Below, one piece after another: positions 4,295 through 16,584 of a stretch of 64,000 nt of DNA. Origin of the DNA: Klebsiella phage KPP2018. Both the position numbers and the translations under genes were made by a program. Position 1 is the stretch's first letter; each line of letters starts with the position of its first letter. Where the stretch lies: the sequence record NC_110934.1; one strand, given 5' to 3'. A model generated the notes under the pieces. It worked only from the letters and a program-made list of their open reading frames with translations, was not told where the DNA came from and did not search any database.

Positions 4295-4295
4295 A

Positions 4296-4795: not shown

Positions 4796-4802
4796 TTGGT
4801 TT

Positions 4803-5057: not shown

Positions 5058-5131
5058 AGGATTCGAACCTGCAACGGGATTACTCCTCCTGATTACAAAT
5101 CAGGTGCATTCAACCATTCTGCCAACCCAGC
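5045..5131 (-). tRNA. Atypical 87-nt type-II-shaped tRNA (15-nt extra arm) with anticodon TGT (Thr) as read
   Basis: Acceptor GCTGGGT/GCCCAGC, A73, CCA encoded; anticodon loop TTTGTAA; extra arm AGGAGTAATCCCGTT. Confidence 0.6.
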
Positions 5132-5296
5132 AGAACCCGTTATTTCAACGGGATTTCTTTTTCAATAACAGGGGACTTGTCAGTCATGACTGTCATTGCC
5201 ATTTGTTGTAGAAATTCAAAGGTGAAGGCTACACGTTCTTCACCAATCTCTACTTCTACACGTTTCTTTTGTTTATCGATCTTGACTTTCAGATTA

Positions 5297-5518
5297 TCAG
5301 CCATCTTCGGGTTCTCGTTGCTGCGCTACTTCTAGCCAGTCTGGTAGAAGAAACTTTGTACGAAATTCTTCGTAAGTTTCTTTGGGATAAAAGCTAAAAC
5401 CTCCTTTCTCGTCATTCAGGATAACAGAGCCGTCAGTTTGTTCGTATGCTCGGTATGTTTCTCCAATAACAATAACTCGTTTATCGGTACTTTTATTACG
5501 AAATTCAAAAACGTGCAT
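5297..5518 (-). CDS. Hypothetical protein, 73 aa
   Basis: ORF. Confidence 0.5.
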   Translation of the reverse strand: MHVFEFRNKSTDKRVIVIGETYRAYEQTDGSVILNDEKGGFSFYPKETYEEFRTKFLLPDWLEVAQQREPEDG

Positions 5519-5534
5519 AACGTTTCCTTAAAGT

Positions 5535-5610
5535 TGGAGCGGCTAGAGGGAATCGAACCCTACTCAGCGAGGCTTGGAAGGCCTGCGACACAACCCGTGT
5601 GCTTAACCGC
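5535..5610 (-). tRNA. tRNA-Gly (TCC)
   Basis: Hand fold; loop CTTCCAA; short D-arm. Confidence 0.7.
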
Positions 5611-5618
5611 TTATTGTT

Positions 5619-5694
5619 TGGCTGGAGAAGGAGGAATCGAACCTACCATTAACGGAGTCAAAGGCCGTTGTGCTAACCGTTACACTACTCTCCA
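5619..5694 (-). tRNA. tRNA-Gln (TTG)
   Basis: U1:A72; loop CTTTGAC. Confidence 0.7.
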
Positions 5695-5700
5695 ATTATT

Positions 5701-5776
5701 TGGCTGGAGTGCCTGGGATCGAACCAGGAACCTTCGGAGTCAGAGGCCGACGATCTGCCAATTGATCTACACTCCA
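5701..5776 (-). tRNA. tRNA-Gln (CTG)
   Basis: U1:A72; loop CTCTGAC. Confidence 0.7.
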
Positions 5777-5784
5777 ATAACCCT

Positions 5785-5985
5785 TTACTCTACAGGAACC
5801 GTGGCGATTGGTTCTGGATCTTCTAAACGTTTGCCTTCATGATCTACTCGAATAACTCCGCATCCTTCGCAAATCACAACAGCACCGTAGCCTTCTTTAA
5901 CTTCAGCTTCTGTAATCAAACCAGAAAGATCACCAGTATCTCTGCCCCACATATCAATGGAGCATTGTTTGCAGAAATCAGCCAT
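5785..5985 (-). CDS. Zinc-ribbon small protein, 66 aa (two CxxC pairs)
   Basis: ORF. Confidence 0.5.
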   Translation of the reverse strand: MADFCKQCSIDMWGRDTGDLSGLITEAEVKEGYGAVVICEGCGVIRVDHEGKRLEDPEPIATVPVE

Positions 5986-6010
5986 ATTTTATTTCCTATT
6001 TAAGTTAATT

Positions 6011-6087
6011 TGGGGTGGCTAGTGGAATTCGAATCCACATAGGCCTGATTCACAATCAGGATCATTAACCAATTATGATATAGCCAC
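6011..6087 (-). tRNA. tRNA-His (GTG)
   Basis: Loop TTGTGAA; CCA encoded. Confidence 0.7.
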
Positions 6088-6300
6088 AATTGAAAACTCG
6101 CAGGGTTAGCGAAACCTTCCTCAATTAGCATGTTCTAGAATACTAATCAAGTTATCTCCTATTGCACGCAGCTCAAGACGAGTACGAATTTTCAATTGTG
6201 GCGGCTCTCCGAAACTCTTCTACTCTAGCCTTAGCAGCTTACTCCCGAACGCATGTCGGGAAAGTCTTACTAAGAGCATCAAATAGCACCGTTACACTTT
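6088..6300 (-). ncRNA. Candidate structured RNA: about 120-nt region closed by a 14-bp stem (ccacaattgaaaa...ttttcaattgtgg) next to tRNA-His
   Basis: Long perfect inverted repeat; no ORF; lies in a transcribed tRNA block. Confidence 0.3.
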
Positions 6301-6321
6301 GAGCCATAGATATATCAAGAA

Positions 6322-6440
6322 GCAGAAGGACTTGAACCTTCACGAGATAGACCATTTATCTCAGCCGCTTTATGAGGTATGTTGCAAGGAGTGGATGTTC
6401 CTTATAAACCTTTTAGGCAGCCCCGTCTACCGATTCCGGC
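6322..6440 (-). other. tRNA-like element with a perfect T-arm (GAAGG TTCAAGT CCTTC) but no acceptor pairing I could find
   Basis: T-arm motif at 6331..6347; the remaining cloverleaf could not be closed by hand. Confidence 0.3.
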
Positions 6441-6471
6441 ATACTTCAAGAATTTTTATAAACCAGCAGAA

Positions 6472-6645
6472 GCCTCATTTAAAGCATCAACAATAGCCTC
6501 ACGTTGGGTCATTCCATACCCGGTGGAATCTAGGTGTGGCAAATAAGCCTTCCATCCCTTATCTGTTTCATGAAGACATGCTTTAAATTTTGTACCATCC
6601 TTCATTGTTACAGTAACTGTTTTGCTCATAAGATTTCCTTATAGT
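6472..6645 (-). CDS. Small protein of about 57 aa (MSKTVTVTMKDGTKFKACLHETDKGW...)
   Basis: Hand-translated; shorter than the ORF-track cutoff. Confidence 0.35.
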
Positions 6646-6649
6646 TAAT

Positions 6650-6739
6650 TGGCAGAAGATAATGGAGTCGAACCATCACCGTATCGCTACAGCGGGCTGG
6701 TTTTCAAGACCAGTTACGTACCACTACGTCCTATCTTCT
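6650..6739 (-). tRNA. tRNA-Ser (TGA), type II
   Basis: Loop CTTGAAA; long extra arm; G73; CCA encoded. Confidence 0.75.
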
Positions 6740-6745
6740 ATTGTT

Positions 6746-6836
6746 TGGCGGAAGAGGAGAGATTTGAACTCTCAAGCCGTTTTACCAGTCAGCCACTTTC
6801 CAAGCGGTTTTCGTCGCCAATTCGATTTGCTCTTCC
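6746..6836 (-). tRNA. tRNA-Ser (GGA), type II
   Basis: Loop TTGGAAA; long extra arm; G73. Confidence 0.65.
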
Positions 6837-6860
6837 AATAATAAGATGATGCCTCTATCA

Positions 6861-6905
6861 CACCAGGCAGTTACGCCTCGCTGGGATTCGAACCCATTAA
6901 AACAG
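6861..6905 (-). other. Orphan T-arm or tRNA 3' fragment (TGGG TTCGAAT CCCA) with no matching 5' half
   Basis: T-loop motif only. Confidence 0.3.
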
Positions 6906-6948
6906 CTCAACCAAGATAGTAGGTTTAATTTACTCTGACCATCAAATT

Positions 6949-7025
6949 TGGTGCGTGACAAGGGATTCGAACCCTCAAAACCCGACTTCTAAGGACGGTA
7001 TGTATGCCAATTCCATCAATCACGC
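6949..7025 (-). tRNA. Atypical type-I tRNA with Leu anticodon TAG, A73 and a 5-nt variable loop
   Basis: Loop CTTAGAA; a T:T mismatch in the anticodon stem; CCA encoded. Confidence 0.55.
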
Positions 7026-7030
7026 ATGTT

Positions 7031-7109
7031 TGGTGGAGAATAACGGAATCGAACCGTTCTGATGTCCTCGGTGCAAGCGAGGTGTCCACTCCATGCAGAC
7101 CCATTCCCC
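7031..7109 (-). tRNA. tRNA-Ala (TGC) with a G3:U70 wobble
   Basis: Loop CTTGCAC; G3:T70 is the Ala identity pair. Confidence 0.75.
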
Positions 7110-7320
7110 AAATTCTTTAGTTTACTAAGGCTATTAGCTCGGCGTAACTACAGCACCTTCGCTTCAAGCGGAAGGAACCGCGTCATCTCGCAAACCCGAT
7201 ACACTATTCAGTTGCCGCTGAATCTAGTGGACTAATCTAGAACTTCTCCCGAATCGTAGGGATCGTGCTTTTTGGCAGCCAGTCCTAGGTCGAGCTAATA
7301 CCTTAGTGAACTATGATGAG
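7110..7320 (-). ncRNA. Candidate small RNA: about 210 nt, no ORF, hairpins, downstream of a T5-type promoter and upstream of the tRNAs
   Basis: Inverted repeats ccttcgc/gcggaagg and ctagtggactaatctag. Confidence 0.3.
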
Positions 7321-7326
7321 GATTTC

Positions 7327-7398
7327 TCCTCATCAATTTATATAAATATTATAACAAGAAATTAAGCATCAAGCAAGTACATTTTTAGCGATTTCTTG
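7327..7398 (-). promoter_or_regulatory. T5-type early promoter firing into the ncRNA/tRNA block
   Basis: Motif family. Confidence 0.7.
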
Positions 7399-7737
7399 TA
7401 GTTCCTTTACATCACGAACGTAAAGGTAATCAGAGCTTCCAGAGTGCATACTTTGCATAACCACACCTTCATCTGGTGCATTATCCTTCAGAGTAATTCC
7501 TAACCAGAACTCGGCAAAACTAGGTGTTATCTCACCTTGACTTGCCTTGAATACATCATATTCTGTAAGTTCTTGACCAGTAGATAATCCCAAATATACA
7601 GAACTAAGATCAATCTCTTTATGAGACTCATAAAACTCCGATAGATCCTTTTCCATATCCCAGCCATGCTGTAGCGCGAACTCCATTGTCACATGACCGA
7701 AATAACCTTGAATCTTGCTTGATAATTGCATTTGCAA
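7369..7737 (-). CDS. Hypothetical protein, 122 aa
   Basis: ORF. Confidence 0.6.
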   Translation of the reverse strand: MQMQLSSKIQGYFGHVTMEFALQHGWDMEKDLSEFYESHKEIDLSSVYLGLSTGQELTEYDVFKASQGEITPSFAEFWLGITLKDNAPDEGVVMQSMHSGSSDYLYVRDVKELQEIAKNVLA

Positions 7738-7756
7738 TTCCTTATTTTGAGTTAAT

Positions 7757-7830
7757 TGGTACTCGGTGATAGAATCGAACTATCGCAACCGCCGTGTAAA
7801 GACGGGGTTCTCCCATTAAACTAACCGAGC
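7757..7830 (-). tRNA. tRNA-Val (TAC)
   Basis: Loop TTTACAC. Confidence 0.7.
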
Positions 7831-7834
7831 AATT

Positions 7835-7913
7835 TGGTAGATCGCCTGGGACTCGAACCCAGAACCTTCCGATTAAAAGTCGGATGCTACTAAACCTATT
7901 GAGCTAGCGATCT
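7835..7913 (-). tRNA. tRNA-Lys (TTT)
   Basis: Loop CTTTTAA. Confidence 0.7.
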
Positions 7914-7916
7914 ATT

Positions 7917-8084
7917 AGTAACCATTGTATACTTCTTTAATAGAGTGAACCTTCAAGTAAGGGTGATTAGTATTAAACTCTGACATTACTTCATCCCAAT
8001 TTTTACCATAATGGGCAAGTAAGGATTTTGATGTATTCTTACCTGAACGTTTGTCGCTTACTACTAATCGAAATACTTTCATTT
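7917..8084 (-). CDS. Small protein of about 55 aa (MKVFRLVVSDKRSGK...)
   Basis: Hand-translated. Confidence 0.35.
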
Positions 8085-8102
8085 CGAAATCCCCTATTAA
8101 AA

Positions 8103-8180
8103 TGGAAGCGGGTGCAGGAATCGAACCTACCTCTTTCTAGCTTATGAGACTAGTGATCTCTACCAGAGATCTAACCCGCA
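8103..8180 (-). tRNA. tRNA-Met/Ile2 (CAT) with a 1:72 mismatch
   Basis: Loop CTCATAA. Confidence 0.65.
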
Positions 8181-8186
8181 ATTGTT

Positions 8187-8262
8187 TGGTCAGTGCGGCA
8201 GGACTCGAACCTGCGACCCGAAGCATCCAAGGCTCCCACGCTACCAACTGCGCTACGCACTG
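8187..8262 (-). tRNA. tRNA-Pro (TGG) with C1:G72
   Basis: Loop CTTGGAT. Confidence 0.75.
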
Positions 8263-8303
8263 TTAATTCTTTTATTGTGGAGGAATATTAATAATTCGTC
8301 CGT

Positions 8304-8471
8304 CTACACAATAAACGGTACTAGGAATTGTACTATATATATGTAGAAATTCTTTATATTACTCTCCCCGCCACAGAAATTTTTAGCAAATTCATACTCT
8401 TTATTAATGGTTGAGTCAAATTTAAAACAACCAGTAAGTAGGAATACAGATAGTAATAAAATTTTCTTCAT
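8304..8471 (-). CDS. Small lipoprotein, 55 aa (lipobox LLTGC)
   Basis: Hand-translated MKKILLLSVFLLTGCFKF...; promoter at 8478..8552. Confidence 0.45.
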   Translation of the reverse strand: MKKILLLSVFLLTGCFKFDSTINKEYEFAKNFCGGESNIKNFYIYIVQFLVPFIV

Positions 8472-8477
8472 TTAGCT

Positions 8478-8552
8478 TTCCTTCTCTTCACTTTATAAAA
8501 TATATTATACAGATAATTAAGCAGAATAGCAAATGAATTTTTAATAAATTTA
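8478..8552 (-). promoter_or_regulatory. T5-type early promoter
   Basis: Motif family. Confidence 0.7.
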
Positions 8553-8559
8553 CTTATTG

Positions 8560-8683
8560 TGTAGGCCACCTGGAGGCTACCAACCCCACGGCTGACAAAG
8601 AAGTTTGCGAGACCTCTCTTAAATGCCAGAATAGATCCGCCGATCTATCGGAACCTACATAATAAGTAAACTTTATAGTGTCA
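8560..8683 (-). ncRNA. Unassigned non-coding stretch with hairpins inside the tRNA block
   Basis: No ORF and no tRNA fold found. Confidence 0.2.
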
Positions 8684-8804
8684 TTCTAGACAGGACTCGA
8701 ACCTGTTATCACTTGTGCGGACTTACGAGAACCATTCTTTCACTCGAATCGAACGAGCTTCTGCCCTCGCCAAGCTGGTTTCCCCGTCAACCACGCTAGA
8801 ATGT
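8684..8804 (-). other. 120-nt tRNA-like element: acceptor-like closing stem ATTCTAG/CTAGAAT enclosing two T-arm hairpins; no CCA
   Basis: Two T-arm motifs (GCTCG TTCGATT CGAGT and ACAGG TTCGAGT CCTGT). Confidence 0.4.
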
Positions 8805-8924
8805 TTAATTGTTTTCAGTGCAAGAGTCCGAGTCTTGGACACGACCGCTTCGCAAGTACATAGGCAGCTTATCATGAATCAGCACTTCCGAATTGCTAGC
8901 TCCGTGTTCTGCACTGAAATTTTA

Positions 8925-9272
8925 TTAGTTTAACCGTAAAGTATTATCTACTTCACCATTAATTGTTCGGCATTCTTCTGGGATTGCCGGGGTGGCCTTG
9001 TATTCCCACCATTCAGAACCGTCATATTCACCACGTTCTAACCAAGTTCCATCAGTAAACCATACGTTACCATAAAGCAATTGTCCACCGAAACCAGAAT
9101 CATATTTAAAGTCTAGATTATTTAGAAAATCTTCAATATCTTTTTCTGTATAACCTACGGGTAATACCCAAACTTCTTTGTCCCCATAATAACCGAATTC
9201 TATCTTAATACACTTAACTTCAGACTTAGTATTCTTTAGGGCAAGTAACAACTCTTCTTTAGCATTAATCAT
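8925..9272 (-). CDS. Hypothetical protein, 115 aa
   Basis: ORF. Confidence 0.6.
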   Translation of the reverse strand: MINAKEELLLALKNTKSEVKCIKIEFGYYGDKEVWVLPVGYTEKDIEDFLNNLDFKYDSGFGGQLLYGNVWFTDGTWLERGEYDGSEWWEYKATPAIPEECRTINGEVDNTLRLN

Positions 9273-9298
9273 AACATATTTCTCGTGCTAGTTTAATT

Positions 9299-9375
9299 TG
9301 GCGCGACCGATGGGATTCGAACCCACATTCTCTCCAGTGACAGGGGAGTACCATTACCAAGCCAGCCCCGGTCGC
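9299..9375 (-). tRNA. tRNA-Asp (GTC); copy 1 carries a C31:U39 mismatch (9336 a), whereas copy 2 has a paired G
   Basis: Loop CTGTCAC; G73; the one SNP found between the copies. Confidence 0.75.
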
Positions 9376-9384
9376 ATAATTCAT

Positions 9385-9570
9385 TTACTCAGCTTTGAGT
9401 TTTTCAATAGCTGCATTAAGTTCCTTAAGAAACTCTTTTCGTACATTAAGACGATTAAGACTTACTAGTATATCATGTTTAAGTTCTTCGATATATTTCT
9501 TCTCAACTTCAATATTGTTGATAGTGCTATCACGATGAACTTCTAGCTGCGCAATTACATTCTTGGACAT
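9385..9570 (-). CDS. Coiled-coil small protein, 61 aa
   Basis: ORF. Confidence 0.45.
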   Translation of the reverse strand: MSKNVIAQLEVHRDSTINNIEVEKKYIEELKHDILVSLNRLNVRKEFLKELNAAIEKLKAE

Positions 9571-9672
9571 GCTTGTTTCCTCAGTTATTAATAAAAATGG
9601 TATCTGTGGCTGAATTCGATATCAGCAATGATAGCTGGTTGGCTACCGGTTTACTTAACTCTACACAGAATT

Positions 9673-9755
9673 TGGCGGGCCGTGTAGGATTCGAACCTAC
9701 GTTGTCTTTCGACATGGATTAACAGTCCACCGCCAAACCGCTTGGCTAACGACCC
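9673..9755 (-). tRNA. tRNA-Asn (GTT) with an unusual 13-nt extra arm
   Basis: Loop CTGTTAA; extra arm GTCGAAAGACAAC. Confidence 0.65.
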
Positions 9756-9907
9756 TAAATTTATATTGCTGACTAGGATTTTCACCTAGACGGAGTTAGC
9801 ACCGTAGCGTGTAGCGGCATACCCCTCCAAACCGTGCCTCATCTTTCAATTACGGAGACAGTGTTCCTACGCGTGCCTGAATTGATTTAACAATTCTTTC
9901 AGCAAAT
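9756..9907 (-). ncRNA. Unassigned structured non-coding stretch between tRNA-Asn and tRNA-Cys
   Basis: Hairpins; no ORF. Confidence 0.2.
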
Positions 9908-9983
9908 TGGACGACCGCATGAGATTTGAACTCACATAAGAAGGATTTGCAATCCTTCTCCTAAGCCATTCAGCCAACGGTCG
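9908..9983 (-). tRNA. tRNA-Cys (GCA), U73
   Basis: Loop TTGCAAA. Confidence 0.75.
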
Positions 9984-10007
9984 ATTTATCTTGTTCTGTC
10001 ATGTTGC

Positions 10008-10075
10008 TCCCCCAGTTCAATTTATGTAATTATTATACAGAACTTTTGGAAACTAAGCAACTACATTTTTTAAGA
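10008..10075 (-). promoter_or_regulatory. T5-type early promoter firing into the tRNA block
   Basis: Motif family. Confidence 0.65.
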
Positions 10076-10340
10076 ATTTGATGCCTTTCTTTCTCTTCTT
10101 ATATTTCCACGTTAATGGATTCTGTCGATTATGAACACTTGAGATCTTTGTCTCATCAAAGTTCTTCAATATCATGTAATCACAAGATAGTTGTTCTAAT
10201 GGAATGTGATCACCGTCAAAAGCGTGTACATAAGGTTGTTGACTAGCACGATAATGATAGACTTTGTTAATTCTACGTTTCAGCGACTTATCCGCGCAGT
10301 AAATAAAGAAGTTTTCAGGATGCATCAGCAGCTCCTTCAA
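10053..10340 (-). CDS. Hypothetical protein, 95 aa
   Basis: ORF. Confidence 0.55.
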   Translation of the reverse strand: MKELLMHPENFFIYCADKSLKRRINKVYHYRASQQPYVHAFDGDHIPLEQLSCDYMILKNFDETKISSVHNRQNPLTWKYKKRKKGIKFLKNVVA

Positions 10341-10417
10341 TTTGGTGCACCCTGTTCGTATCGAACGAACCTCTCAAGCTCTTCAGGCAAGCGCTAATCC
10401 ATCTCAGCTAAAGGTGC
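10341..10417 (-). tRNA. tRNA-Phe (GAA)? The anticodon stem is weak
   Basis: Loop CTGAAGA; two T:T mismatches in the stem. Confidence 0.45.
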
Positions 10418-10424
10418 AAATTTT

Positions 10425-10495
10425 GGCAGGGGTAAAGGTATTCGAAACCTTTTCATGGGTTTTGGAGGCCCATTTGCAACCTATGCGTACCCCAA
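10425..10495 (-). tRNA. tRNA-Trp (CCA), compact 71 nt with a reduced D-arm
   Basis: Loop CUCCAAA, as in E. coli tRNA-Trp. Confidence 0.55.
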
Positions 10496-10504
10496 TTATT
10501 AATT

Positions 10505-10578
10505 GGCACACCCAACGAGGATCGAACTCGTGTTCCCACTGTGAAAGAGTGGTGTCCTAACCGCTAGACGATAGGTGC
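10505..10578 (-). tRNA. tRNA-Glu (TTC)
   Basis: Loop CTTTCAC. Confidence 0.7.
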
Positions 10579-10585
10579 ATTAAAT

Positions 10586-10673
10586 TGGTGGGGAAAGATG
10601 GAGTCGAACCACCCGAGTCGCAATGACAACTGATTTACAGTCAGCTCTGCTACCACTTACAGAATATTTCCCC
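10586..10673 (-). tRNA. tRNA-Tyr (GTA), type II
   Basis: Loop CUGUAAA; A73. Confidence 0.75.
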
Positions 10674-10803
10674 ATATTTAGAAGTATTCAAAAATTCTCA
10701 TTTAAACACTTTTAAATATGTTTCCAAATTAGATAAATATTATATCAAGTTTTATAGTATTGGGCAAGTCAAATTTTAAAGAACTTGCCCAATGCTGTAT
10801 TAG

Positions 10804-11079
10804 TTAGTCGAACTTAGGAGTGACAGTTAAGGAGAACGGAAGTTCAAAAACTTCTTCGCCCTCATCACTAATAGTGATTACACGACCTTTAAGTTCAGAC
10901 ATTGAAATATCAATATCAGCTTTTGCATCTGGAGCCATGCCAGCTTCAATACATTTAGCTTTAATTTCCGGCAGAAGTTCTACATCGTAGAAATAAAGCC
11001 ATTCAATCTCACCTTCCCAGCCTTCCCAGGATTTACAGATTGCACTTTCAATACCAGCAGCTATAACACGATTTTGCAT
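10804..11079 (-). CDS. Acidic hypothetical protein, 91 aa
   Basis: ORF; promoter at 11088..11162. Confidence 0.6.
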   Translation of the reverse strand: MQNRVIAAGIESAICKSWEGWEGEIEWLYFYDVELLPEIKAKCIEAGMAPDAKADIDISMSELKGRVITISDEGEEVFELPFSLTVTPKFD

Positions 11080-11087
11080 TCGTTAAC

Positions 11088-11162
11088 TCCTTCATCAATT
11101 TATATAACTATTATATCAGAAATTTAAAGCAAAAGGCAAGTACATTTTTAAAAATTCTGTTT
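11088..11162 (-). promoter_or_regulatory. T5-type early promoter
   Basis: Motif family. Confidence 0.7.
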
Positions 11163-11169
11163 GGAGGAG

Positions 11170-11376
11170 CTAAACTCCAGATTCTTCAGCCAAGTCTAGA
11201 CTAATAAGAGATATAGCCATAATTGCTGCTCCGTGCTCTTTTTCTCCAGTCTCTTTAGCTAGAGTTATAATATCAAGAAATTGCTTATGAAAATCTGCAA
11301 CCTCTTGAGTTATACCTGCCTCAGCAATCATGCCTTTAAGCATGAAGCGTTGTGCGGTAATTTCAGGATTAGCCAT
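11170..11376 (-). CDS. Hypothetical protein, 68 aa
   Basis: ORF. Confidence 0.5.
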   Translation of the reverse strand: MANPEITAQRFMLKGMIAEAGITQEVADFHKQFLDIITLAKETGEKEHGAAIMAISLISLDLAEESGV

Positions 11377-11551
11377 GTTGTTTCTCCAGTTTCATCTTTA
11401 ATAGTCTACAAATAAAATCAATGTCTTCATCCGTGCCTAGATCTCTATCTTCAAGGGTTGCCTTGAAGTTTTTAGTCAATTCCATGAGAATAACTTCTCT
11501 AGAACGACGTGTTGGCGGAGGTGGATGTCTATACATCTTATTTCCTTAATT

Positions 11552-11628
11552 TGGTAGGGGTGGTGGGATTCGAACCCACAAAACCTGAATTTTAAGTCCA
11601 GTACCTATGCCAATTCGATTACACCCCC
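11552..11628 (-). tRNA. Atypical type-I tRNA with Leu anticodon TAA, A73 and a 5-nt variable loop
   Basis: Loop CTTAAAA. Confidence 0.55.
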
Positions 11629-11635
11629 ATGTAGT

Positions 11636-11824
11636 TTAGTCAATTACTTTTGAGGCTTCAAGGTAGTCGATATAGTGTACGTTTTCTACCGTAATCATAT
11701 AATCCGCCACTTTATCCATAGCTTGGGCTTCAGAGGTAGCTCTGGCTAACCTATATCCTTTTCTATACTCATCCGGGTATTCTCTATCTTGAATAAACAC
11801 AACATAAACTATATATAGATCCAT
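11636..11824 (-). CDS. Hypothetical protein, 62 aa
   Basis: ORF. Confidence 0.45.
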   Translation of the reverse strand: MDLYIVYVVFIQDREYPDEYRKGYRLARATSEAQAMDKVADYMITVENVHYIDYLEASKVID

Positions 11825-11843
11825 TTGTGACCTCTATTTAATT

Positions 11844-11921
11844 TGGTGGCTCCCCGAGGATTCGAACCTACGTACCTTCCGGTTATGAGCCGGGTGCTCA
11901 TACCATATGAGCTTGAGAACC
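11844..11921 (-). tRNA. tRNA-Met/Ile2 (CAT); the third CAT tRNA
   Basis: Loop CTCATAA. Confidence 0.6.
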
Positions 11922-11927
11922 AAAATC

Positions 11928-12016
11928 TGGCGGAAGAAGTGGGAATCGAACCCACAAGGCTATATTTCAAACCGACAGATTAGCAATCTGCTGCAATACC
12001 ATTATGCTATTCTTCC
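11928..12016 (-). tRNA. tRNA-Ser (GCT), type II
   Basis: Loop TTGCTAA; G73. Confidence 0.75.
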
Positions 12017-12037
12017 GAATTTATAAGATATATTATA

Positions 12038-12607
12038 TTAGAAATTTAGCTTCATAGCAAGAAAATTTTTCAAGTTTTCGGTAGACATCTCATCCACATC
12101 TACAGGAGAAACAAATCCATTTAATTGTCTAGCAAACTTTTCACCAGCAGGATCATTGTCCCCAACAGCTACCAATTTAAAAGGTAGTAATTTCAGTTGC
12201 TTTAATAACGCTTTTCCTGGAGAAGAACCCAACATTGCCAGGGCTGGATAACCCGCATTATGTAATGCAACTGCCTTAAATACAGATTCAGCAATCAATA
12301 CTACTTTTTCATCCCCATTGAGAGTTTCTAGTCCCCATACACACTGTGTAGTAGAATAAGTAAAGTATTTAGCTTCAAAGGGGCACTTACCATGACCTTT
12401 TGGAGCAGAAGGATTATAAGTTTGATAGCCCCTCAACATTCCAGAGAAATCATACAACGGGACTGTTAGCCACCCTTCCGGACTTAACCAGCAATGATAT
12501 TTATCTGTATCAAATCCTCTAGATAAGAGGTGCTGTGTTAGCTCATCAACATTCATATTTGGTTCCTCTCTCAAATTTATAGATATATTATACAGAGAAT
12601 TTAGCAT
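12038..12607 (-). CDS. TOPRIM-domain protein (small primase-like), 189 aa
   Basis: VVLIAES...VAVGDNDPAG resembles the Toprim E and DxD motifs. Confidence 0.55.
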   Translation of the reverse strand: MLNSLYNISINLREEPNMNVDELTQHLLSRGFDTDKYHCWLSPEGWLTVPLYDFSGMLRGYQTYNPSAPKGHGKCPFEAKYFTYSTTQCVWGLETLNGDEKVVLIAESVFKAVALHNAGYPALAMLGSSPGKALLKQLKLLPFKLVAVGDNDPAGEKFARQLNGFVSPVDVDEMSTENLKNFLAMKLNF

Positions 12608-12625
12608 TCAAGCAATCAAATTTTT
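12548..12625 (-). promoter_or_regulatory. T5-type early promoter
   Basis: Motif family. Confidence 0.7.
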
Positions 12626-12731
12626 TAACTTTTTAGAGGAAAATCATAGGGCACTTAAGGGTAGCAGATAAGTGGTGAGGACCAAAATTTGTGACCCCAC
12701 TAAAAATCCAGGGGCAATTTTTAAAGACCCC

Positions 12732-12760
12732 TTGACATTTTCGCTGGGGTAGTGTAAAGT
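12732..12760 (+). promoter_or_regulatory. Sigma70 promoter (TTGACA, 17-nt spacer, TG-TAAAGT) for the plus-strand low-complexity operon; copy at 42196..42224
   Basis: Read directly. Confidence 0.6.
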
Positions 12761-12822
12761 ATATGTTATGGATGAGTGATCAAAGAGACACACATTTTCT
12801 ATATACTAGGAGGTGTCAAAAA

Positions 12823-13593
12823 ATGACAGAAGAAGTAGCTAAGAGTCCTGAGACCGTCGCTAGCGTTGCAGCAGAACTGCACCGTCACGAGGAATCAGAT
12901 AAGAAAAAGTGGGAGAAGGTCAGAGCCTACGAAGAGAAACATCGTGAACACGATGAAGATGATGAAGAAGATGACGATGATGAGTATTGTCATAAATATG
13001 GAAAACGTAAAATGCAAGAACCAGTAAACGTATTCACTAGTGGCTTCCCTGGCCTAATGGGTGGTTACCCAGCAAACGCAGGTGCTTTCGGTGGTGAAGG
13101 TATGGGACTATTCGGAGCTATCCTAATCGGTGCTCTATTAACAGGCGGATTCGGTGGTTTTGGTGGATTTGGTGGACGTGGTGTAGTTGGTGAAGGTACC
13201 GCAGTTGATGCAGTACTTCAGAACCAAGATACCGCTAGTATTCTAGCAGCTATTAACACTACTCGTACAGAAGCTAACCAGGGTACTGGAGCTGTTTTAA
13301 GCGCAGTTAACAATGGTTTTAGCCAGACATCCCAAAACCAGAGCCGTGATACTCAGTCTGTACTAACTACGATCTATGGTACGGGTGCTAATCTGTCTAA
13401 TCAAATCTGCCAGGAAACTCGCAACGTTATTCAGGGTCAGTTCGATCTTTCTCGCCAGATTGATCAATCTTTCGCAGCTAACCAGATAGCTCGTGCACAA
13501 GATAAGTTTGATTCTGCACAGATCGCTTTCCAGCAGACTTTACAAACTAATAACCAGTTTGCCGCTGTTCAGGCTCAGATGTGTGCTAACCAG
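12823..13593 (+). pseudogene. 5' 257 codons of the Gly-rich/acidic protein gene (intact copy 42287..43279), cut off by the repeat junction
   Basis: Identical to copy 2 up to 13593, then reads into unrelated sequence. Confidence 0.85.
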
Positions 13594-13699
13594 TTATGAT
13601 AATGATCAAATCGATCAGCAAACGGCGGGCTTTTTGCTGGACACGCTGAAAGCGGAACACTGCACTAAAAAGCAAGCGGCAAAAATTATTTTAATGTAA
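13594..13699 (+). pseudogene. C-terminal fragment (...DNDQIDQQTAGFLLDTLKAEHCTKKQAAKIILM) of a gene whose 5' part is missing
   Basis: In-frame coding-like sequence that starts exactly at the junction. Confidence 0.5.
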
Positions 13700-13747
13700 T
13701 TAATAAAGGGGCGAAAGTAACGCCCCACTAACTAGGGAGTATTACAA

Positions 13748-13897
13748 ATGATTATTTTTCGAGCTATTCTGGCGGGTATCTTGGGCGCTATTTTATCTTT
13801 GTTTGCAATAGCTTTCGATGTTCACGCGGTTATTATCGGCGCGGGTATCGCTGCATTTTCTTATCTGCTGGGCTGCATGACTAGTAAAGGAGAATAA
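13748..13897 (+). CDS. 49-aa membrane peptide
   Basis: Hand-translated MIIFRAILAGILGAILSLFAIAFDVHAVIIGAGIAAFSYLLGCMTSKGE. Confidence 0.45.
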   Translation: MIIFRAILAGILGAILSLFAIAFDVHAVIIGAGIAAFSYLLGCMTSKGE

Positions 13898-13899
13898 AA

Positions 13900-14112
13900 A
13901 TGATCCGCAACGTTTCTCTTGCACGTTCGAAAGGCTTTAAGCTGGTGGATGCTAACACGTTCGAGCGGGAAGATTGTAAAATCGAATATGTAGCACGTAA
14001 CAAAAATGCCTTTCGTGTTACTGAGAAAAAATTTGATAAGCGCGGCAACGTGATCGCTGAAACGGTTAAGCACTTTGCCACCTTTTACGCTGCGTTTCGT
14101 GGGGTACTATGA
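13900..14112 (+). CDS. Hypothetical protein, 70 aa
   Basis: ORF; its stop overlaps the next start (ATGA). Confidence 0.5.
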   Translation: MIRNVSLARSKGFKLVDANTFEREDCKIEYVARNKNAFRVTEKKFDKRGNVIAETVKHFATFYAAFRGVL

Positions 14113-14249
14113 AAAGCGTTATCGTTATTGCCCTTGCAATGGTTGGCGGTTTTACCGCCACCTTATTCAAAAATGACCCCATTTCATTGGGGATCTTTAT
14201 GTTATTATCTGGCTATCTAATTGGGAGGTTGTCAAATGGTTATTTATGA
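14109..14249 (+). CDS. 46-aa membrane peptide
   Basis: MKSVIVIALAMVGGFTATLF... Confidence 0.45.
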   Translation: MKSVIVIALAMVGGFTATLFKNDPISLGIFMLLSGYLIGRLSNGYL

Positions 14250-14580
14250 GGGCAATCGTTTTGTTGCTAATTGCCGTCCTGCATTATTAGCAAACTACTT
14301 AAATCAGCTTTCCCCAGCTTATAAGGGTGTTATTAATATTTATGAGGGCAAGGCGCATTATAAAATCAATGCGGTCGTTGCCCGTGAACTAGCATTTCAA
14401 TTTTTGACCTTTGCATCTTGTGATATTCAGGTCATGGGGGAAGCATTAATTGCAGAAAATGAAGATGATTTTATTAATATTTTCCGCAAGATATGCACCG
14501 AGCGGCTGATAATGAAAGGCGCGTATATTCAATCCACGGCTGATAGTATTGAAACAGCGTTTCGAAAGGTGGCGCAATGA
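14236..14580 (+). CDS. Hypothetical protein of about 114 aa
   Basis: ORF 14221..14580; an SD-like ggaggt sits upstream of the Met at 14236. Confidence 0.5.
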   Translation: MVIYEGNRFVANCRPALLANYLNQLSPAYKGVINIYEGKAHYKINAVVARELAFQFLTFASCDIQVMGEALIAENEDDFINIFRKICTERLIMKGAYIQSTADSIETAFRKVAQ

Positions 14581-14735
14581 AAAAGTTTTTAATAGCTGGC
14601 ATGTTTCCGTTGTTGCCTTATGTAATTTGCTGGGCTTTATACGCTCATGGCGCTAGTGTTCCCGCTGTGGCTTCATTTGGTGTATCGGCGGGCTTTCTAG
14701 CTGGACTATTAGCAAGCGTATACTTACGCAAATAA
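14577..14735 (+). CDS. 52-aa membrane peptide
   Basis: MKKFLIAGMFPLLPYVICWALY...; start overlaps the upstream stop. Confidence 0.45.
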   Translation: MKKFLIAGMFPLLPYVICWALYAHGASVPAVASFGVSAGFLAGLLASVYLRK

Positions 14736-14754
14736 TTAATAATGGGGCGTTATT

Positions 14755-14949
14755 ATGAGCAATAAAATTGTTGTAACCAAAATCAGTACAATGGTTGATG
14801 TTTTTTACGTGCCCGATACGCCGGAAAACCGACAAGCGGTCGAGCGTGGAGAATATGATAAAGTGATTTATGATCACGATGGTTATTATCAGCATTTAGT
14901 GGATTCCTACGGGGAGGAGGAGAAGATCACGCATCGACTACCAGACTAA
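14755..14949 (+). CDS. Hypothetical protein, 64 aa
   Basis: ORF. Confidence 0.5.
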   Translation: MSNKIVVTKISTMVDVFYVPDTPENRQAVERGEYDKVIYDHDGYYQHLVDSYGEEEKITHRLPD

Positions 14950-14983
14950 TAATCACGGGGCGCAACTATCAGGAAGTGCCCCC

Positions 14984-15013
14984 AATTCTCAAATGAGAAT
15001 GATTCTCATTTGA
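14984..15013. repeat. Perfect 23-bp palindrome caaatgagaatgattctcatttg
   Basis: Read directly; the same core recurs in iteron family 1. Confidence 0.8.
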
Positions 15014-15233
15014 CCGCGCCCGCGATGGTTAGCCTGCTAATGGTTAGGGTGTTACGTGTCGCCTTGTGTGATCGTTAGCGTGCTAACTAATTTTCAAGCC
15101 TCCTTCAATTTTGCCCTTGTTTTAGTATCCCCAACAAAATTAAACGCGTTAGAATGCGTTTGAGAGCGTTTTAACGCTATATTAGAATTATTCACTGCGT
15201 AGGAATACTGTATATTTATACAGTAGGATAAGC

Positions 15234-15242
15234 TGTGGATAA
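15234..15242 (-). promoter_or_regulatory. DnaA box (TTATCCACA on the minus strand)
   Basis: Plus strand reads tgtggataa, the exact consensus. Confidence 0.7.
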
Positions 15243-15245
15243 GTC

Positions 15246-15254
15246 TGTTGATAA
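15246..15254 (-). promoter_or_regulatory. DnaA-like box (TTATCAACA, 1 mismatch)
   Basis: Plus strand reads tgttgataa. Confidence 0.5.
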
Positions 15255-15306
15255 CGCTTCAAAACGGCTAGAATTTTGTCAAGTCAAATCGTGCTGTTAG
15301 TAAGTC

Positions 15307-15315
15307 TGTGGATAA
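15307..15315 (-). promoter_or_regulatory. DnaA box (TTATCCACA)
   Basis: tgtggataa; the flanks repeat the first box (aagtctgtKgataac). Confidence 0.7.
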
Positions 15316-15392
15316 CTTAAATAACAGTGTTTCTCACTTCCGTTCTTAAATGAGAATCATTATCATTTGCATTTCACTATCTAACTAATAAT

Positions 15393-15525
15393 CATTCCGC
15401 TTTTTAAATGAGAATCATTCCGCTTTTTAAATGAGATTGATTCTCATTCCGCTTTTTAAATGCGAATTATTATCATTCTCATTCCGCTTTTTAAATGAGA
15501 ATGATTCTTATTATCATTCGTATTT
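15393..15525. repeat. Iteron family 1: 4 direct copies of cattccgctttttaaatgagaat(N)att at 15393, 15416, 15445 and 15480, each with a palindromic aaatgagaat/attctcattt core
   Basis: Read directly. Confidence 0.85.
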
Positions 15526-15551
15526 AGCGCAGGGCAATTGCCCTGCGCTTT

Positions 15552-16153
15552 TGTGCAAATCCGACATTGCTCCACGGGTGTTACGTGCGGGCGTGTATGT
15601 GCGAATCCGACAATCTTTGGTAGTGTGCAAATCCGACCCGAAAAATTTTTATAGTGTGCAAATCCGACAATGAATTTTCCCAAAAACTCCAGCAATCTCG
15701 AACTGCGTTCGAATCCTGTGGGGTATGTGCAAATTCGACACGGTTTTTCTAGGATTAAGATGTGCAAATCCGACAAGATTTTTGTGACTTCGATTGGAGG
15801 GTGTGTGATTGTGTGGGTTTGGGGAGAAGATGAGAGAGCGAGAGAAAATAAGGGAAGAAACTGGAGGAGCAGCATGGGTGGCGTGTAACGCCTGATTTGC
15901 TGCGTTTTTGGGGAAGAGTTGAGAAGATTTGGGTTAATTGGGCTTGGGGCGAGATAAAGTAAAATTTTATTAGCAAAATGGGGCAAAATAGCTTGACAAG
16001 TGAAAATTCCTGTGGCTCTAAAAACTCAGGCAATCATGGGCCTTCGGCCCGAAATAATGCTGCTATTTTCAGGAGATTATATGTGCCTAAAAACTTAGGC
16101 ATTTGTGCAAATCCGACCATAAATTTCTAGAAACACAATGTGCAAATCCGACA
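15552..16153. repeat. Iteron family 2: 8 copies of TGTGCAAATCCGACA (0-1 mismatches) at 15552, 15598, 15624, 15655, 15726, 15761, 16104 and 16139
   Basis: Read directly. Confidence 0.85.
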
Positions 16154-16584
16154 GTAATTTCTGGAAATGTGTTTTCAAAAAATGTCTCCTAGAAATAACC
16201 GCCCTCCCTATAACCGCCCTGTATTAAACCGCCTAGTATATGTTCCTAGAAACTTAGGAGAACCGCCCACTAGAAGCGTGATATCTCGTGGGTATTTCGT
16301 GAGAACTCTGGAGTTTCTAGGAAAGTGTATGTGATCCTAGAGATGGGGAGCGGCAACAGGTGTATCATCTTGAACACAGATATTGCCTTTAAATATATTC
16401 GTATGTTTTAAAAGTAAATGATCCCCCATTTCATGTGAGATTCCTCGTGGGGCGCGTGAGTATTACGGAAGAACTCTAATATTGGCCCGCGCTAAGACTA
16501 GCCGCTATAGCACAGACGCAAATAGAGTTGTAATAATCATCGCCCCTAGAGTTCACAATAAGAGTTATTGTTAATCTATGAGAT

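What the first reader, a model, noticed from the sequence alone, without database searches (positions are those of the whole stretch)
13594..16560. Foreign-composition block with an operon of mini membrane proteins, DnaA boxes and two iteron families, starting mid-ORF
At 13594 the composition switches to a visibly GC-richer, enterobacterial-like style. The block opens with the last 34 codons of a gene whose start is absent. It then has six tightly coupled plus-strand genes (overlapping ATGA and TAAATG junctions), three of them 46-52-aa single-TM peptides. After that comes 1.65 kb with no ORFs: a 23-bp perfect palindrome, three DnaA boxes in a repeated aagtctgtKgataac context, and 4 plus 8 iterons. 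That architecture is typical of a theta-type replication origin or partition/incompatibility locus, not of T5-like phage DNA. T5 is reported to carry repeat- and DnaA-box-rich DNA at its injection-stop locus, but in T5 that locus is AT-rich and sits next to the A1/A2 genes. Both the composition and the neighbours are wrong here. Candidate explanations are a captured plasmid or prophage origin fragment (a moron), an injection-stop-signal-like element of this phage, or a chimeric contig with a co-isolated GC-richer phage or host DNA.
Basis: partly seen in the sequence, partly recalled or inferred. Interest (0 to 1): 0.8.

Follow-up and report, generated by a model that had tools for sequence, protein, structure and literature searches.

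The report
Known T5 injection-stop region, misjoined contig
The block is the ordinary right-hand end of a T5-like phage's terminal repeat (small pre-early genes plus the repeat-rich "injection stop signal"); it looks foreign only because a second copy of 13.6 kb from elsewhere in the same genome is joined to its left edge, most likely by the assembly.

Summary
Window 13594-16610 is homologous and syntenic to the right part of the T5 left terminal repeat. It holds the C-terminus of gene 012, genes 013, 014, 015 and 017, two extra small membrane ORFs, and the annotated injection stop signal (iss, "Repeat Region 3"). That region carries paired DnaA boxes and the DRC and DRD repeats. 456 phage records match the block. 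No plasmid and no complete E. coli genome does. GC is 41.3% against 39.3% for the window, about 1 SD, and T5's own iss is 41.7%.

The break at 13593|13594 is real. Window 1-13593 is a second copy, with 1 mismatch, of window 29465-43057, the tRNA region. The joint is blunt, cuts two genes, and occurs in none of 278 related records nor in three public contig collections. An untrimmed or misjoined assembly overlap is the most likely cause. A true 29.5-kb duplication is unlikely.

By-product: the iss also contains a 19/20 LexA (SOS) box next to the DnaA boxes, and the first "iteron" family matches the Fur box. Both are conserved across Demerecviridae, and neither appears in the literature I could search. 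Verdict: already known element plus a probable artefact; low interest, with one testable lead.

The parts
1..13593 (.). Second copy (copy 1) of window 29465-43057 (tRNA / 'deletable' region of T5-like phages). It is misplaced directly left of the block.
   Evidence: Self-BLAST gives 13593/13593 aligned with 1 mismatch, at 9336. It maps to Th1 23825-38175 and L6jm 24171-37944. The private A at 9336 breaks the C32-G40 pair of tRNA-Asp; copy 2 and L6jm have C.
13593..13594 (.). Anomalous blunt joint. The end of the duplicated segment (mid 350-aa gene) abuts the middle of the T5.012 homologue.
   Evidence: There is no microhomology. 0 of 278 related records span it. The joint sequence is absent from IMG/VR, JGI metagenome and GTDB genome contigs. 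The chimeric 278-aa ORF is not on record.
12763..13599 (+). Truncated copy (278 aa, artificial stop across the joint) of the 350-aa gene whose intact copy is at 42227-43279.
   Evidence: It is 97.8% identical to Th1 gp065 over 277 aa.
13595..13699 (+). C-terminal 34 codons of the T5.012 homologue (pre-early gene). Its first 42 codons are missing.
   Evidence: 100% to Th1 gp008 residues 43-76; 97% to T5.012.
13748..13897 (+). T5.013 homologue, a 49-aa peptide with two hydrophobic segments.
   Evidence: 98% to Th1 gp009, 63% to T5.013; phrog_5607. Gp013 is toxic and causes a cell-integrity defect in T5 (10.64898/2026.04.02.716235).
13900..14112 (+). T5.014 homologue, 70 aa, function unknown. It carries a probably misplaced 'AP endonuclease' label in PHROG and RefSeq.
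   Evidence: (98.6% to T5.014).
14109..14249 (+). 46-aa hydrophobic peptide, not annotated in T5 or Th1.
   Evidence: (phrog_19184, full length).
14236..14580 (+). T5.015 homologue, 114 aa. This is the Ung-dependent endonuclease that nicks abasic sites (a host-takeover toxin).
   Evidence: 93.9% to T5.015. PMC8201957. Pfam PF26847 Phage_T5_AP_Endonuclease is on the Th1 114-aa homologue.
14577..14735 (+). 52-aa hydrophobic peptide in a variable cassette, at the position of T5.016.
   Evidence: phrog_35622; gap in the Th1 alignment, 14567-14745.
14755..14949 (+). T5.017 homologue, 64 aa.
   Evidence: 89%; phrog_6973.
14989..15013 (.). 25-bp perfect palindrome TCAAATGAGAAT-G-ATTCTCATTTGA. Its core matches the Fur 7-1-7 site at 12 of 14 specified positions. 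It lies in a 140-bp segment shared with Th1 but not with T5.
   Evidence: (I18).
15206..15225 (.). LexA (SOS) box-like palindrome TACTGTATATTTATACAGTA, 19/20 to the consensus.
   Evidence: only hit in 64 kb; 0.01 expected. (conserved in T5, Th1, Lindwurm, MM-1, Kenya-K16, S113, Klebsiella Uniso31 and My1). (recA 16/20, lexA 15 and 14/20, sulA 17/20).
15234..15254 (-). DnaA box pair 1: TGTGGATAA-gtc-TGTTGATAA (consensus box plus a one-mismatch variant, 3 bp apart). This is part of the IRD' arm of T5.
   Evidence: (D9). Davison preprint 10.1101/866236.
15295..15315 (-). DnaA box pair 2: TGTTAGTAA-gtc-TGTGGATAA (degenerate box plus consensus box). This is part of the IRC' arm of T5.
15334..15520 (.). 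First 'iteron' family, equal to DRC and the associated palindromes of T5. There are 4 good and 3 degenerate copies of TCATTCCGCTTTTTAAATGAGAATSATTC. The cores match the Fur box at 15-16 of 19. The approximate T5 shear point of first-step-transfer DNA maps here.
   Evidence: (D1, D3).
15526..15549 (+). 24-bp perfect G+C-rich palindrome followed by TTTTG, a terminator-like hairpin. The T5 'major single-chain interruption' (9748/9749) maps to 15548/15549.
   Evidence: I20; -24.4 kcal/mol, z -4.2.
15552..15774 (+). Second 'iteron' family, equal to DRD of T5. Six copies of TGTGCAAATCCGAC lie inside the terminal repeat.
   Evidence: (D2).
16018..16019 (.). Predicted right end of the terminal repeat (the boundary between repeat and unique DNA), placed by homology.
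   Evidence: The T5 LTR end (10219) and the MM-1 LTR end (10407) both map here, in the same sequence context ...TGTGGCTC|TAAAAACTC.
16104..16152 (+). Two further DRD copies, outside the terminal repeat.
16197..16267 (+).
29465..43057 (.). Native copy (copy 2) of the duplicated segment, in normal synteny on both sides.

Best explanation
Window 13594-16610 is the native right-hand third of the terminal repeat of a Tequintavirus (T5-like phage, about 96% identical to Salmonella phage Th1). The terminal repeat is the first-step-transfer, pre-early DNA.

Contents (shown by homology):
- The rightward pre-early operon: gene 012 (cut), 013, 014, 015 (the Ung-dependent AP endonuclease), 017, and two extra small membrane ORFs.
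- The roughly 1.6-kb non-coding 'Repeat Region 3', which in T5 is annotated as the injection stop signal. From left to right it holds a LexA-box-like palindrome, two DnaA-box pairs, the DRC / Fur-box-like array, a G+C hairpin at the site of the T5 7.9% nick, six DRD repeats, the end of the terminal repeat (about 16018), and two more DRD repeats.

Function (taken from the T5 literature, not tested here): this cis-acting locus marks where DNA entry pauses after about 8% of the genome, until the pre-early proteins A1 and A2 allow the rest to enter. The dense set of binding-site-like repeats most likely assembles a nucleoprotein complex on the part of the DNA that has just entered. The same stretch also carries the terminator of the pre-early operon and the cut site that defines the repeat end.

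The left edge (inferred): the apparent 'start mid-ORF' is not an insertion boundary. Window 1-13593 is a second copy of window 29465-43057, butt-joined to the middle of gene 012. The most likely cause is an assembly or circularisation artefact, such as an untrimmed overlap of a contig that overshoots the genome, or two overlapping contigs joined end to end.
For: Identity and synteny:
- 456 phage records match the block, and 143 cover at least 80% of it.
- From 13594 to at least 54841 the window is colinear with Th1 7075-49515.
- T5, Th1 and Lindwurm have the same gene order, with A1 and A2 upstream and the same three genes downstream.
- Protein identities to T5.012-T5.017 are 63-99%, and all ORFs are full-length PHROG members.
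- The non-coding part aligns with T5 9296-10436, including the annotated iss, the nick and the LTR end.
- 567 records match the non-coding part, including Epseptimavirus, Sugarlandvirus and Myunavirus.
- Davison's preprint describes the same DnaA pairs 3 bp apart, 4 DRC and 9 DRD repeats.

Not foreign:
- No plasmid match and no E. coli genome match.
- No Rep or Par domain.
- GC is within 1 SD of the window and equals that of T5's own iss.

Artefact:
- An exact 13,593-bp duplicate with one mismatch.
- A blunt joint with no microhomology that truncates two genes.
- The joint is absent from all 278 related records and from three public contig collections.
- The single difference is private to the misplaced copy and breaks a tRNA-Asp anticodon-stem pair.
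Against: - I cannot see reads or the source record, so a genuine rearrangement is not excluded.
- The duplicate begins exactly at window base 1, which is also a gene boundary (the stop codon of the 232-aa minus-strand gene). I therefore cannot tell whether the repeat continues further left, which would make it a tandem 29,464-bp unit, or whether the record starts there.
- The function of the repeats as the injection stop is inferred from position. The BF23 paper states that experimental studies of their role are lacking (PMC10644984).
- The inverted partner of the DnaA module (Repeat Region 2, left of gene 011) is not in the window.
Confidence: 0.85

Rival explanations
1. The joint is real. 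This phage, or a sub-population of its DNA, carries a tandem duplication of the 29,464-bp unit (window 13594-43057). Alternatively it carries a circular or defective mini-genome made of that unit, so that the iss region truly lies next to the tRNA region.
For: The structure A-B-A-C, with the repeat starting at window base 1, is what the inside of a tandem duplication would look like. The one mismatch shows that the copies are not a simple copy-paste.
Against: - The joint is blunt with no microhomology and destroys two genes.
- It is seen in no other T5-like record and in no public contig.
- The records matched here are about 102-125 kb, and T5 itself is 121.75 kb. Adding 29.5 kb would exceed what these capsids are known to hold (my own knowledge, not tested here).
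- The private base change damages a tRNA stem, as a consensus error would.
Confidence: 0.1
2. The repeats of the non-coding region work mainly in genome-end formation and packaging, not in stopping injection. The DRD copies would be recognition sites for the terminase, or for a nicking or fill-in step that generates the terminal repeat.
For: - The terminal-repeat end annotated in T5 and MM-1 maps to 16018. That is between DRD copies 6 and 7, inside a roughly 90-bp block that is almost identical between T5 and the window.
- My1 has DRD-like copies and a similar TTGACAARTGAAAA context before its repeat end.
Against: No DRD copy lies near the left genome end in T5 1-13000. Nothing here or in the papers read tests this. 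The two functions are not mutually exclusive.
Confidence: 0.3
3. The block is a captured theta-type plasmid or prophage origin / partition locus (a moron). It could also be host or other-phage DNA joined in a chimeric contig.
For: Only the superficial architecture supports this: DnaA boxes, iterated repeats and an ORF-free stretch.
Against: - No plasmid or E. coli match, and no initiator or partition protein.
- The block is present at the same place in hundreds of T5-like genomes.
- Its composition is ordinary.
- According to the Davison preprint, T5 replication origins map near the middle of the genome.
Confidence: 0.02

Closest known systems
Bacteriophage T5 injection stop signal (iss) / Repeat Region 3 of the left terminal repeat (NC_005859 misc_feature 9140-10149; Davison preprint 10.1101/866236)
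   Same: The position is the same: between pre-early gene 017 and the leftward early genes. The order of elements is also the same: a palindrome, two DnaA-box pairs 3 bp apart, DRC repeats, the G+C hairpin at the nick, DRD repeats, and the repeat end. Identity is about 86% over 1.15 kb.
   Different: - The first 140 bp after gene 017 (14950-15093, with the 25-bp palindrome and 3 x ATGGTTAGCSTGCTA) are unrelated to T5 but shared with Th1.
- There are 8 rather than 9 DRD copies.
- One DnaA box is degenerate (TGTTAGTAA).
- Gene 016 is replaced by a 52-aa ORF, and there is an extra 46-aa ORF.
- The partner inverted repeat (Repeat Region 2) and genes dmp-011 are missing from the window because of the joint.
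Salmonella phage Th1 (NC_048795) 7075-10146, the closest sequenced relative found
   Same: 92-97% identity across the block and colinear downstream. The 251-aa neighbour is identical.
   Different: Th1 has the native left flank (gp007 and full-length gp008) and no duplication. A 180-280-bp cassette around 14567-14745 differs.
Iteron-type plasmid origins and E. coli oriC
   Same: Clustered DnaA boxes with about one helical turn between them, families of direct repeats, and no ORFs.
   Different: There is no adjacent initiator gene and no plasmid homology. The locus lies at the entry end of a virulent phage genome whose origins map elsewhere, according to the Davison preprint.
E. coli LexA operators (recA, lexA, sulA) and Fur boxes (fhuA, fepA-fes, fepD-entS, fepB-entC)
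   Same: 15206-15225 matches the SOS-box consensus at 19/20, against 14-17/20 for the E. coli operators. The DRC cores match the Fur 19-mer at 15-16/19, against 13-16/19 for the four E. coli promoters.
   Different: No convincing conserved promoter overlaps them. Binding is untested.

Membership tests
T5-like injection stop locus (Repeat Region 3 of the Demerecviridae terminal repeat) | Lies between the rightward pre-early operon (genes 011-017) and the leftward early genes. | tested here: met
   Synteny with T5, Th1 and Lindwurm.
T5-like injection stop locus (Repeat Region 3 of the Demerecviridae terminal repeat) | Long ORF-free stretch with two DnaA / DnaA* box pairs, each pair 3 bp apart (IRD'-spacer-IRC'). 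| tested here: met
   Pairs at 15234-15254 and 15295-15315. Definition.
T5-like injection stop locus (Repeat Region 3 of the Demerecviridae terminal repeat) | DRC (about 4) and DRD (about 9) direct repeats to the right of the DnaA module. | tested here: met
   4 good DRC copies and 8 DRD copies. They align with the T5 copies.
T5-like injection stop locus (Repeat Region 3 of the Demerecviridae terminal repeat) | Inverted partner IRC-spacer-IRD (Repeat Region 2) upstream of gene 011. | tested here: not met
   No window sequence matches T5 below 7749. The region lies left of the artificial joint, so its absence reflects the window, not necessarily the phage. Davison's type 4 phages also lack it.
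T5-like injection stop locus (Repeat Region 3 of the Demerecviridae terminal repeat) | The terminal-repeat end falls inside the region. | tested here: inconclusive
   The homologous end sequence is present at 16018|16019. Physical ends cannot be seen from a single sequence.
T5-like injection stop locus (Repeat Region 3 of the Demerecviridae terminal repeat) | DNA transfer pauses here until A1 and A2 are made. | not testable with these tools
   Needs infection and shear or qPCR experiments.
Theta-type iteron plasmid origin / partition locus | An adjacent Rep initiator or ParA/ParB gene. | tested here: not met
   Pfam finds none in 9 ORFs. PHROG gives only T5-type families.
Theta-type iteron plasmid origin / partition locus | Homology to known plasmid or chromosomal replicons. 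| tested here: not met
   No match in PLSDB in distant mode or in E. coli complete genomes.
Horizontally acquired island (moron) | Deviant composition and patchy presence among relatives. | tested here: not met
   GC is +1 SD only. The block is present in 456 records.
Assembly / concatenation artefact | A long near-identical duplicate ending in a blunt joint that truncates genes and is unique to this sequence. | tested here: met
Assembly / concatenation artefact | No read support across the joint. | not testable with these tools
   Reads are not available.
LexA operator (SOS box) | A CTGT-N8-ACAG palindrome close to TACTG(TA)5CAGTA. | tested here: met
   19/20 at 15206-15225. This is better than recA, lexA and sulA.
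LexA operator (SOS box) | Overlaps a promoter and is bound by LexA. | tested here: inconclusive
   A promoter-like site at 15160-15188 lies just upstream, but its -35 element is not conserved in T5, S113, Klebsiella Uniso31 or My1. Binding is not testable here.
Fur box | Match to GATAATGATAATCATTATC / TGATAATnATTATCA at the level of real sites. | tested here: met
   15-16/19. Four of the five hits at 2 or fewer mismatches in 64 kb lie in 14994-15516, with 0.81 expected. Real promoters score 13-16/19.
Fur box | Fur binding and iron-dependent effect. | not testable with these tools
   Needs EMSA, ChIP or a fur host.

The most novel reading that the evidence does not exclude
The T5-type injection-stop locus may be a conserved landing pad for pre-existing host DNA-binding proteins, and not only for DnaA. 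A near-perfect LexA operator sits 8 nt from the DnaA boxes. A weaker second copy lies in the inverted partner region. The first 'iteron' family (DRC and its palindromes) consists of Fur-box-like sites. Host LexA and/or Fur, together with DnaA, would bind the last DNA to enter in the first step and take part in pausing, anchoring or timing the second step. Neither site is mentioned in Davison's 2020 analysis of this region, nor in any paper I could search.
Probability: 0.25. Interest if true: 0.65.

Novelty: already known. Interest (0 to 1): 0.3.

Why it matters
For the scan, this removes a false 'foreign origin' call. It also flags a probable mis-assembly: a duplication of at least 13.6 kb, possibly 29.5 kb. 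That duplication would inflate the genome size and create two broken genes if the record were annotated as it stands.

For T5 biology, the mechanism of the two-step DNA transfer has been open for decades, and the papers read here say that the role of the iss repeats is untested. The LexA-box and Fur-box resemblances are conserved from Tequintavirus to Myunavirus and Sugarlandvirus. They give two more concrete host factors to test, with host mutants and with engineered phages.

Tried and rejected
- Plasmid origin: a blastn distant search of PLSDB found nothing.
- Host or prophage DNA: a megablast search of 5,426 E. coli genomes found nothing.
- Known RNA: Rfam gave only two sub-threshold hits (24 and 21 bits, against a gathering score of 45).
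- Protein domains: Pfam found none in the six ORFs.
- Recombination between paralogues: Th1 gp007 and L6jm gp077 are both 993 nt, which suggested it. However, the tRNA-region gene (350 aa here) gave no BLASTP hit to T5.011 or Th1 gp007 at E <= 1e-3, so the equal length is coincidence.
- Microhomology at the joint: none.
- Search for the joint or the source record: 0 hits in the IMG/VR, JGI metagenome and GTDB genome scans. No phage record is more than 97% identical overall. A 47-mer from the 52-aa ORF hit only one IMG/VR contig of 109,654 bp, the same length as the phage VSe12 record. The exact 251-aa neighbour is found only in Th1.
- A T5 nick site as the cause of the break: the native context is GCGCT|T, one base off the annotated GCGC|T nick pattern. 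I left this as a coincidence.
- A LexA-repressed promoter: the -35 element is not conserved.
- Davison 2015 (PMC4743489) could not be read. I did not try to retrieve Heusterspreute 1987. An earlier mention of LexA or Fur sites there cannot be excluded.

Full report
**What is at the coordinates.**
- The region holds six plus-strand ORFs of 49, 70, 46, 114, 52 and 64 aa at 13748-14949, with ATGA overlaps at 14109 and 14577.
- They are preceded by the last 34 codons of a gene with no start (13595-13699).
- They are followed by 1661 bp (14950-16610) without a conserved ORF. The largest ORF there, 176 aa on the minus strand, is broken into 80- and 87-aa pieces in T5.
- The non-coding part has perfect palindromes at 14989-15013 and 15526-15549. 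It has two exact DnaA boxes (15234, 15307) and a one-mismatch variant (15246) in a repeated context.
- It has two repeat families. One has 4 good plus 3 degenerate copies of TCATTCCGCTTTTTAAATGAGAAT. The other has 8 copies of TGTGCAAATCCGAC, where 0.34 are expected by chance.

Three points do not hold.
- The "GC-richer foreign style" is not significant. The block is 41.3% GC, the window 39.3% with an SD of 1.9% for 3-kb windows. 18% of such windows are as rich or richer, and the 830 bp just left of 13594 are 44.8%.
- The three small peptides each have two hydrophobic stretches, not one.
- The window-wide count of consensus DnaA boxes equals chance (8 found, 8.04 expected). Only their arrangement is special.

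**What it is.**
- Megablast of 13594-16600 finds 456 phage records, nearly all Salmonella or Escherichia T5-like phages, and 143 of them cover at least 80%. Nothing matches in 72,556 plasmids or in 5,426 complete E. coli genomes.
- In Th1, Lindwurm and T5 the matching stretch lies 7-10 kb from the left genome end. A1 and A2 are upstream, and the same three minus-strand genes are downstream (251, 113 and 204 aa here).
- The ORFs are homologues of T5.012 (C-terminus, 97%), T5.013 (63%), T5.014 (98.6%), T5.015 (93.9%) and T5.017 (89%). The 46- and 52-aa ORFs are full-length members of PHROG families 19184 and 35622.
- T5.015 is the pre-early toxin that binds Ung and nicks abasic sites (PMC8201957). 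Genes 011-017 are dispensable in the laboratory, and 013 and 015 are toxic when expressed alone (10.64898/2026.04.02.716235).
- The non-coding stretch aligns with T5 9296-10436. That interval is T5's annotated injection stop signal (9140-10149). It contains the "major DNA single-chain interruption" (9748/9749, mapping to window 15548/15549, the 3' edge of the G+C hairpin) and the end of the left terminal repeat (10219, mapping to window 16018). The LTR end annotated in phage MM-1 maps to the same base, in the same sequence context.
- Davison's comparison of 25 T5-like phages describes exactly this "Repeat Region 3". It has IRD'-spacer-IRC' with DnaA boxes in pairs 3 bp apart, four DRC and nine DRD repeats, and many palindromes (10.1101/866236).
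- The non-coding part alone matches 567 phage records, including Epseptimavirus, Klebsiella Sugarlandvirus and Pectobacterium My1.
- T5's own iss is 41.7% GC against 39.2% for T5 1-13000. It is separated from A2 by 5 kb of genes.

**Why it seemed to start mid-ORF.**
- Every match of the left part of the window to relatives ends at 13593, and every match of the block begins at 13594.
- The cause is internal. Window 1-13593 is a second copy of window 29465-43057, with 13,592 of 13,593 bases identical.
- From 13594 onward the window is colinear with Th1 7075-49515. The first 13.6 kb correspond to Th1 23825-38175, the tRNA region. The layout is therefore A-B-A'-C.
- The joint is blunt with no microhomology. 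It cuts a 350-aa gene, whose intact copy is at 42227-43279, down to 278 aa. It also removes the first 42 codons of gene 012.
- None of 278 related records spans it. The joint sequence is absent from IMG/VR, JGI metagenome and GTDB genome contigs. The chimeric protein is not on record.
- The only difference between the copies is an A at 9336 in the misplaced copy. The native copy and L6jm have C. In the misplaced copy the change breaks the C32-G40 pair of the tRNA-Asp anticodon stem.
- I read this as an assembly or circularisation artefact, with probability about 0.7-0.8. Examples are a contig that overshoots the genome and was treated as circular, or two overlapping contigs joined.
- A true 29.5-kb tandem duplication is unlikely. 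The related records matched here are about 102-125 kb and T5 is 121.75 kb. That such a genome would be too long to package rests on my own knowledge of T5 capsid capacity, not on a tool result.
- I cannot see reads. The repeat starts exactly at window base 1, which is also a gene boundary, so I cannot say whether it extends further left.

**How it most likely works.**
- Shown: the homology, the order of elements and their conservation.
- Taken from the literature: about 8% of T5 DNA enters first. Transfer pauses in this non-coding region. A1 and A2 are needed to resume.
- Not shown anywhere I could read: which element causes the pause. The BF23 paper says experimental studies are lacking (PMC10644984).
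- Inference on position: the approximate shear point given by Davison falls in the DRC array (window about 15415-15500). The LexA-like box, the DnaA pairs and most DRC copies would then have entered the cell. The hairpin/nick, the DRD copies and the repeat end would still be outside.
- My best reading is a nucleoprotein complex of pre-existing host proteins on the just-entered DNA, as Davison proposed for membrane-bound DnaA.
- The DRD copies bracket the repeat end: six lie inside the repeat, the end is at 16018, and two lie outside. They may serve end formation or packaging instead. The two roles are not exclusive.

**By-products.**
- (a) 15206-15225, TACTGTATATTTATACAGTA, matches the E. coli SOS-box consensus at 19 of 20 positions. 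It is the only hit in the window at 3 or fewer mismatches, with 0.01 expected.
  - It lies 8 nt left of the first DnaA pair.
  - It is conserved at that place in T5, Th1, Lindwurm, MM-1, Kenya-K16, S113 and Klebsiella Uniso31 (19/20) and in My1 (18/20, with the CTG...CAG arms kept).
  - A weaker copy sits in the inverted partner region.
  - The recA, lexA and sulA operators of K-12 score 14-17/20 by the same count.
  - A 41-nt degenerate pattern covering this box and the first DnaA pair occurs in IMG/VR only in contigs of 96-123 kb.
- (b) The DRC/palindrome cores match the Fur box.
  - Four of the five window hits to TGATAATnATTATCA at 2 or fewer mismatches lie in 14994-15516, with 0.81 expected for 64 kb.
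  - All 19-mer matches of 15/19 or better in the non-duplicated 50 kb lie in 15346-15515.
  - The Fur-regulated fhuA, fepA-fes, fepD-entS and fepB-entC promoters score 13-16/19.
  - Fur-like sites lie between the DnaA module and the DRD copies in My1, Klebsiella Uniso31 and S113 as well.
- The Davison preprint mentions neither LexA, SOS, Fur nor iron, and full-text searches found no paper linking them to T5. Davison 2015 could not be read, and I did not try to retrieve Heusterspreute 1987, so priority is uncertain. Binding is untested.
- Caveat on Fur: from my own knowledge, FhuA (the T5 receptor) is derepressed when Fur is inactive, which would argue against Fur being essential for the pause.

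**Verdict.** The block is a known, family-wide element of T5-like phages, and its odd left edge is most probably an artefact of the sequence record. Novelty: already known. Interest is low (0.3). It is kept above the floor only by the LexA/Fur lead, which makes an old question a little more testable.

Noticed in passing
window 1-13593 and 29465-43057: A 13,593-bp direct duplicate with one mismatch (9336 A against 38800 C). The repeat starts exactly at window base 1, which is the stop codon of a 232-aa minus-strand gene. It may therefore extend further left, as a 29,464-bp tandem unit.
   Followed up: yes
window 15206-15225: A near-perfect LexA (SOS) box, 19/20, next to the DnaA boxes of the iss. 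It is conserved across Demerecviridae, with a weaker copy in Repeat Region 2 (T5 6211, Th1 5556). It is not mentioned in the literature I could search.
   Followed up: partly
window 14994-15516; also L005 (T5) 233-247 and L004 (Th1) 259-273: The DRC/palindrome repeats match the Fur box as well as real E. coli Fur sites do. In addition, a perfect TGATAATCATTATCA lies about 230-260 nt from the left genome end inside dmp. There it encodes DDNDY, so it may be a codon by-product.
   Followed up: partly
window 13900-14112 versus 14236-14580: The label 'endonuclease nicking abasic sites generated by host Ung' is attached in RefSeq (locus tag T5.014) and in phrog_4227 to the 70-aa protein. The paper names T5.015, and Pfam PF26847 (Phage_T5_AP_Endonuclease) hits the 114-aa protein. 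This is probably an off-by-one annotation transfer.
   Followed up: partly
window 16586-16614, minus strand: A strong sigma-70-like site (TTGACG, 17 nt, TATAAT with TG; 11/12) lies immediately after the last early gene and points leftward into the non-coding region. A similar site is visible in T5 (TTGACA, 17 nt, TATCAT) in the alignment. Its transcript and purpose are unknown.
   Followed up: no
window 17952-17965 (inside ORF 17695-18309, minus strand): A ninth DRD-like copy (TGTGCATATCCGAC, 1 mismatch) lies 1.8 kb right of the array, inside a coding gene. T5 has a DRD copy at the corresponding place (12153, in T5.019).
   Followed up: no
window 15790-15985: A strongly purine- and G-rich plus strand (GC skew +0.35) lies between the DRD array and the terminal-repeat end. 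It is partly conserved in T5.
   Followed up: no
L008 (Escherichia phage anhysbys, Phapecoctavirus) 2063-2081: An unrelated 149-kb phage has a Fur-box-like 19-mer (16/19) in an intergenic region that carries an annotated repeat_region. This is what produced the weak BLAST hit to the DRC array.
   Followed up: no
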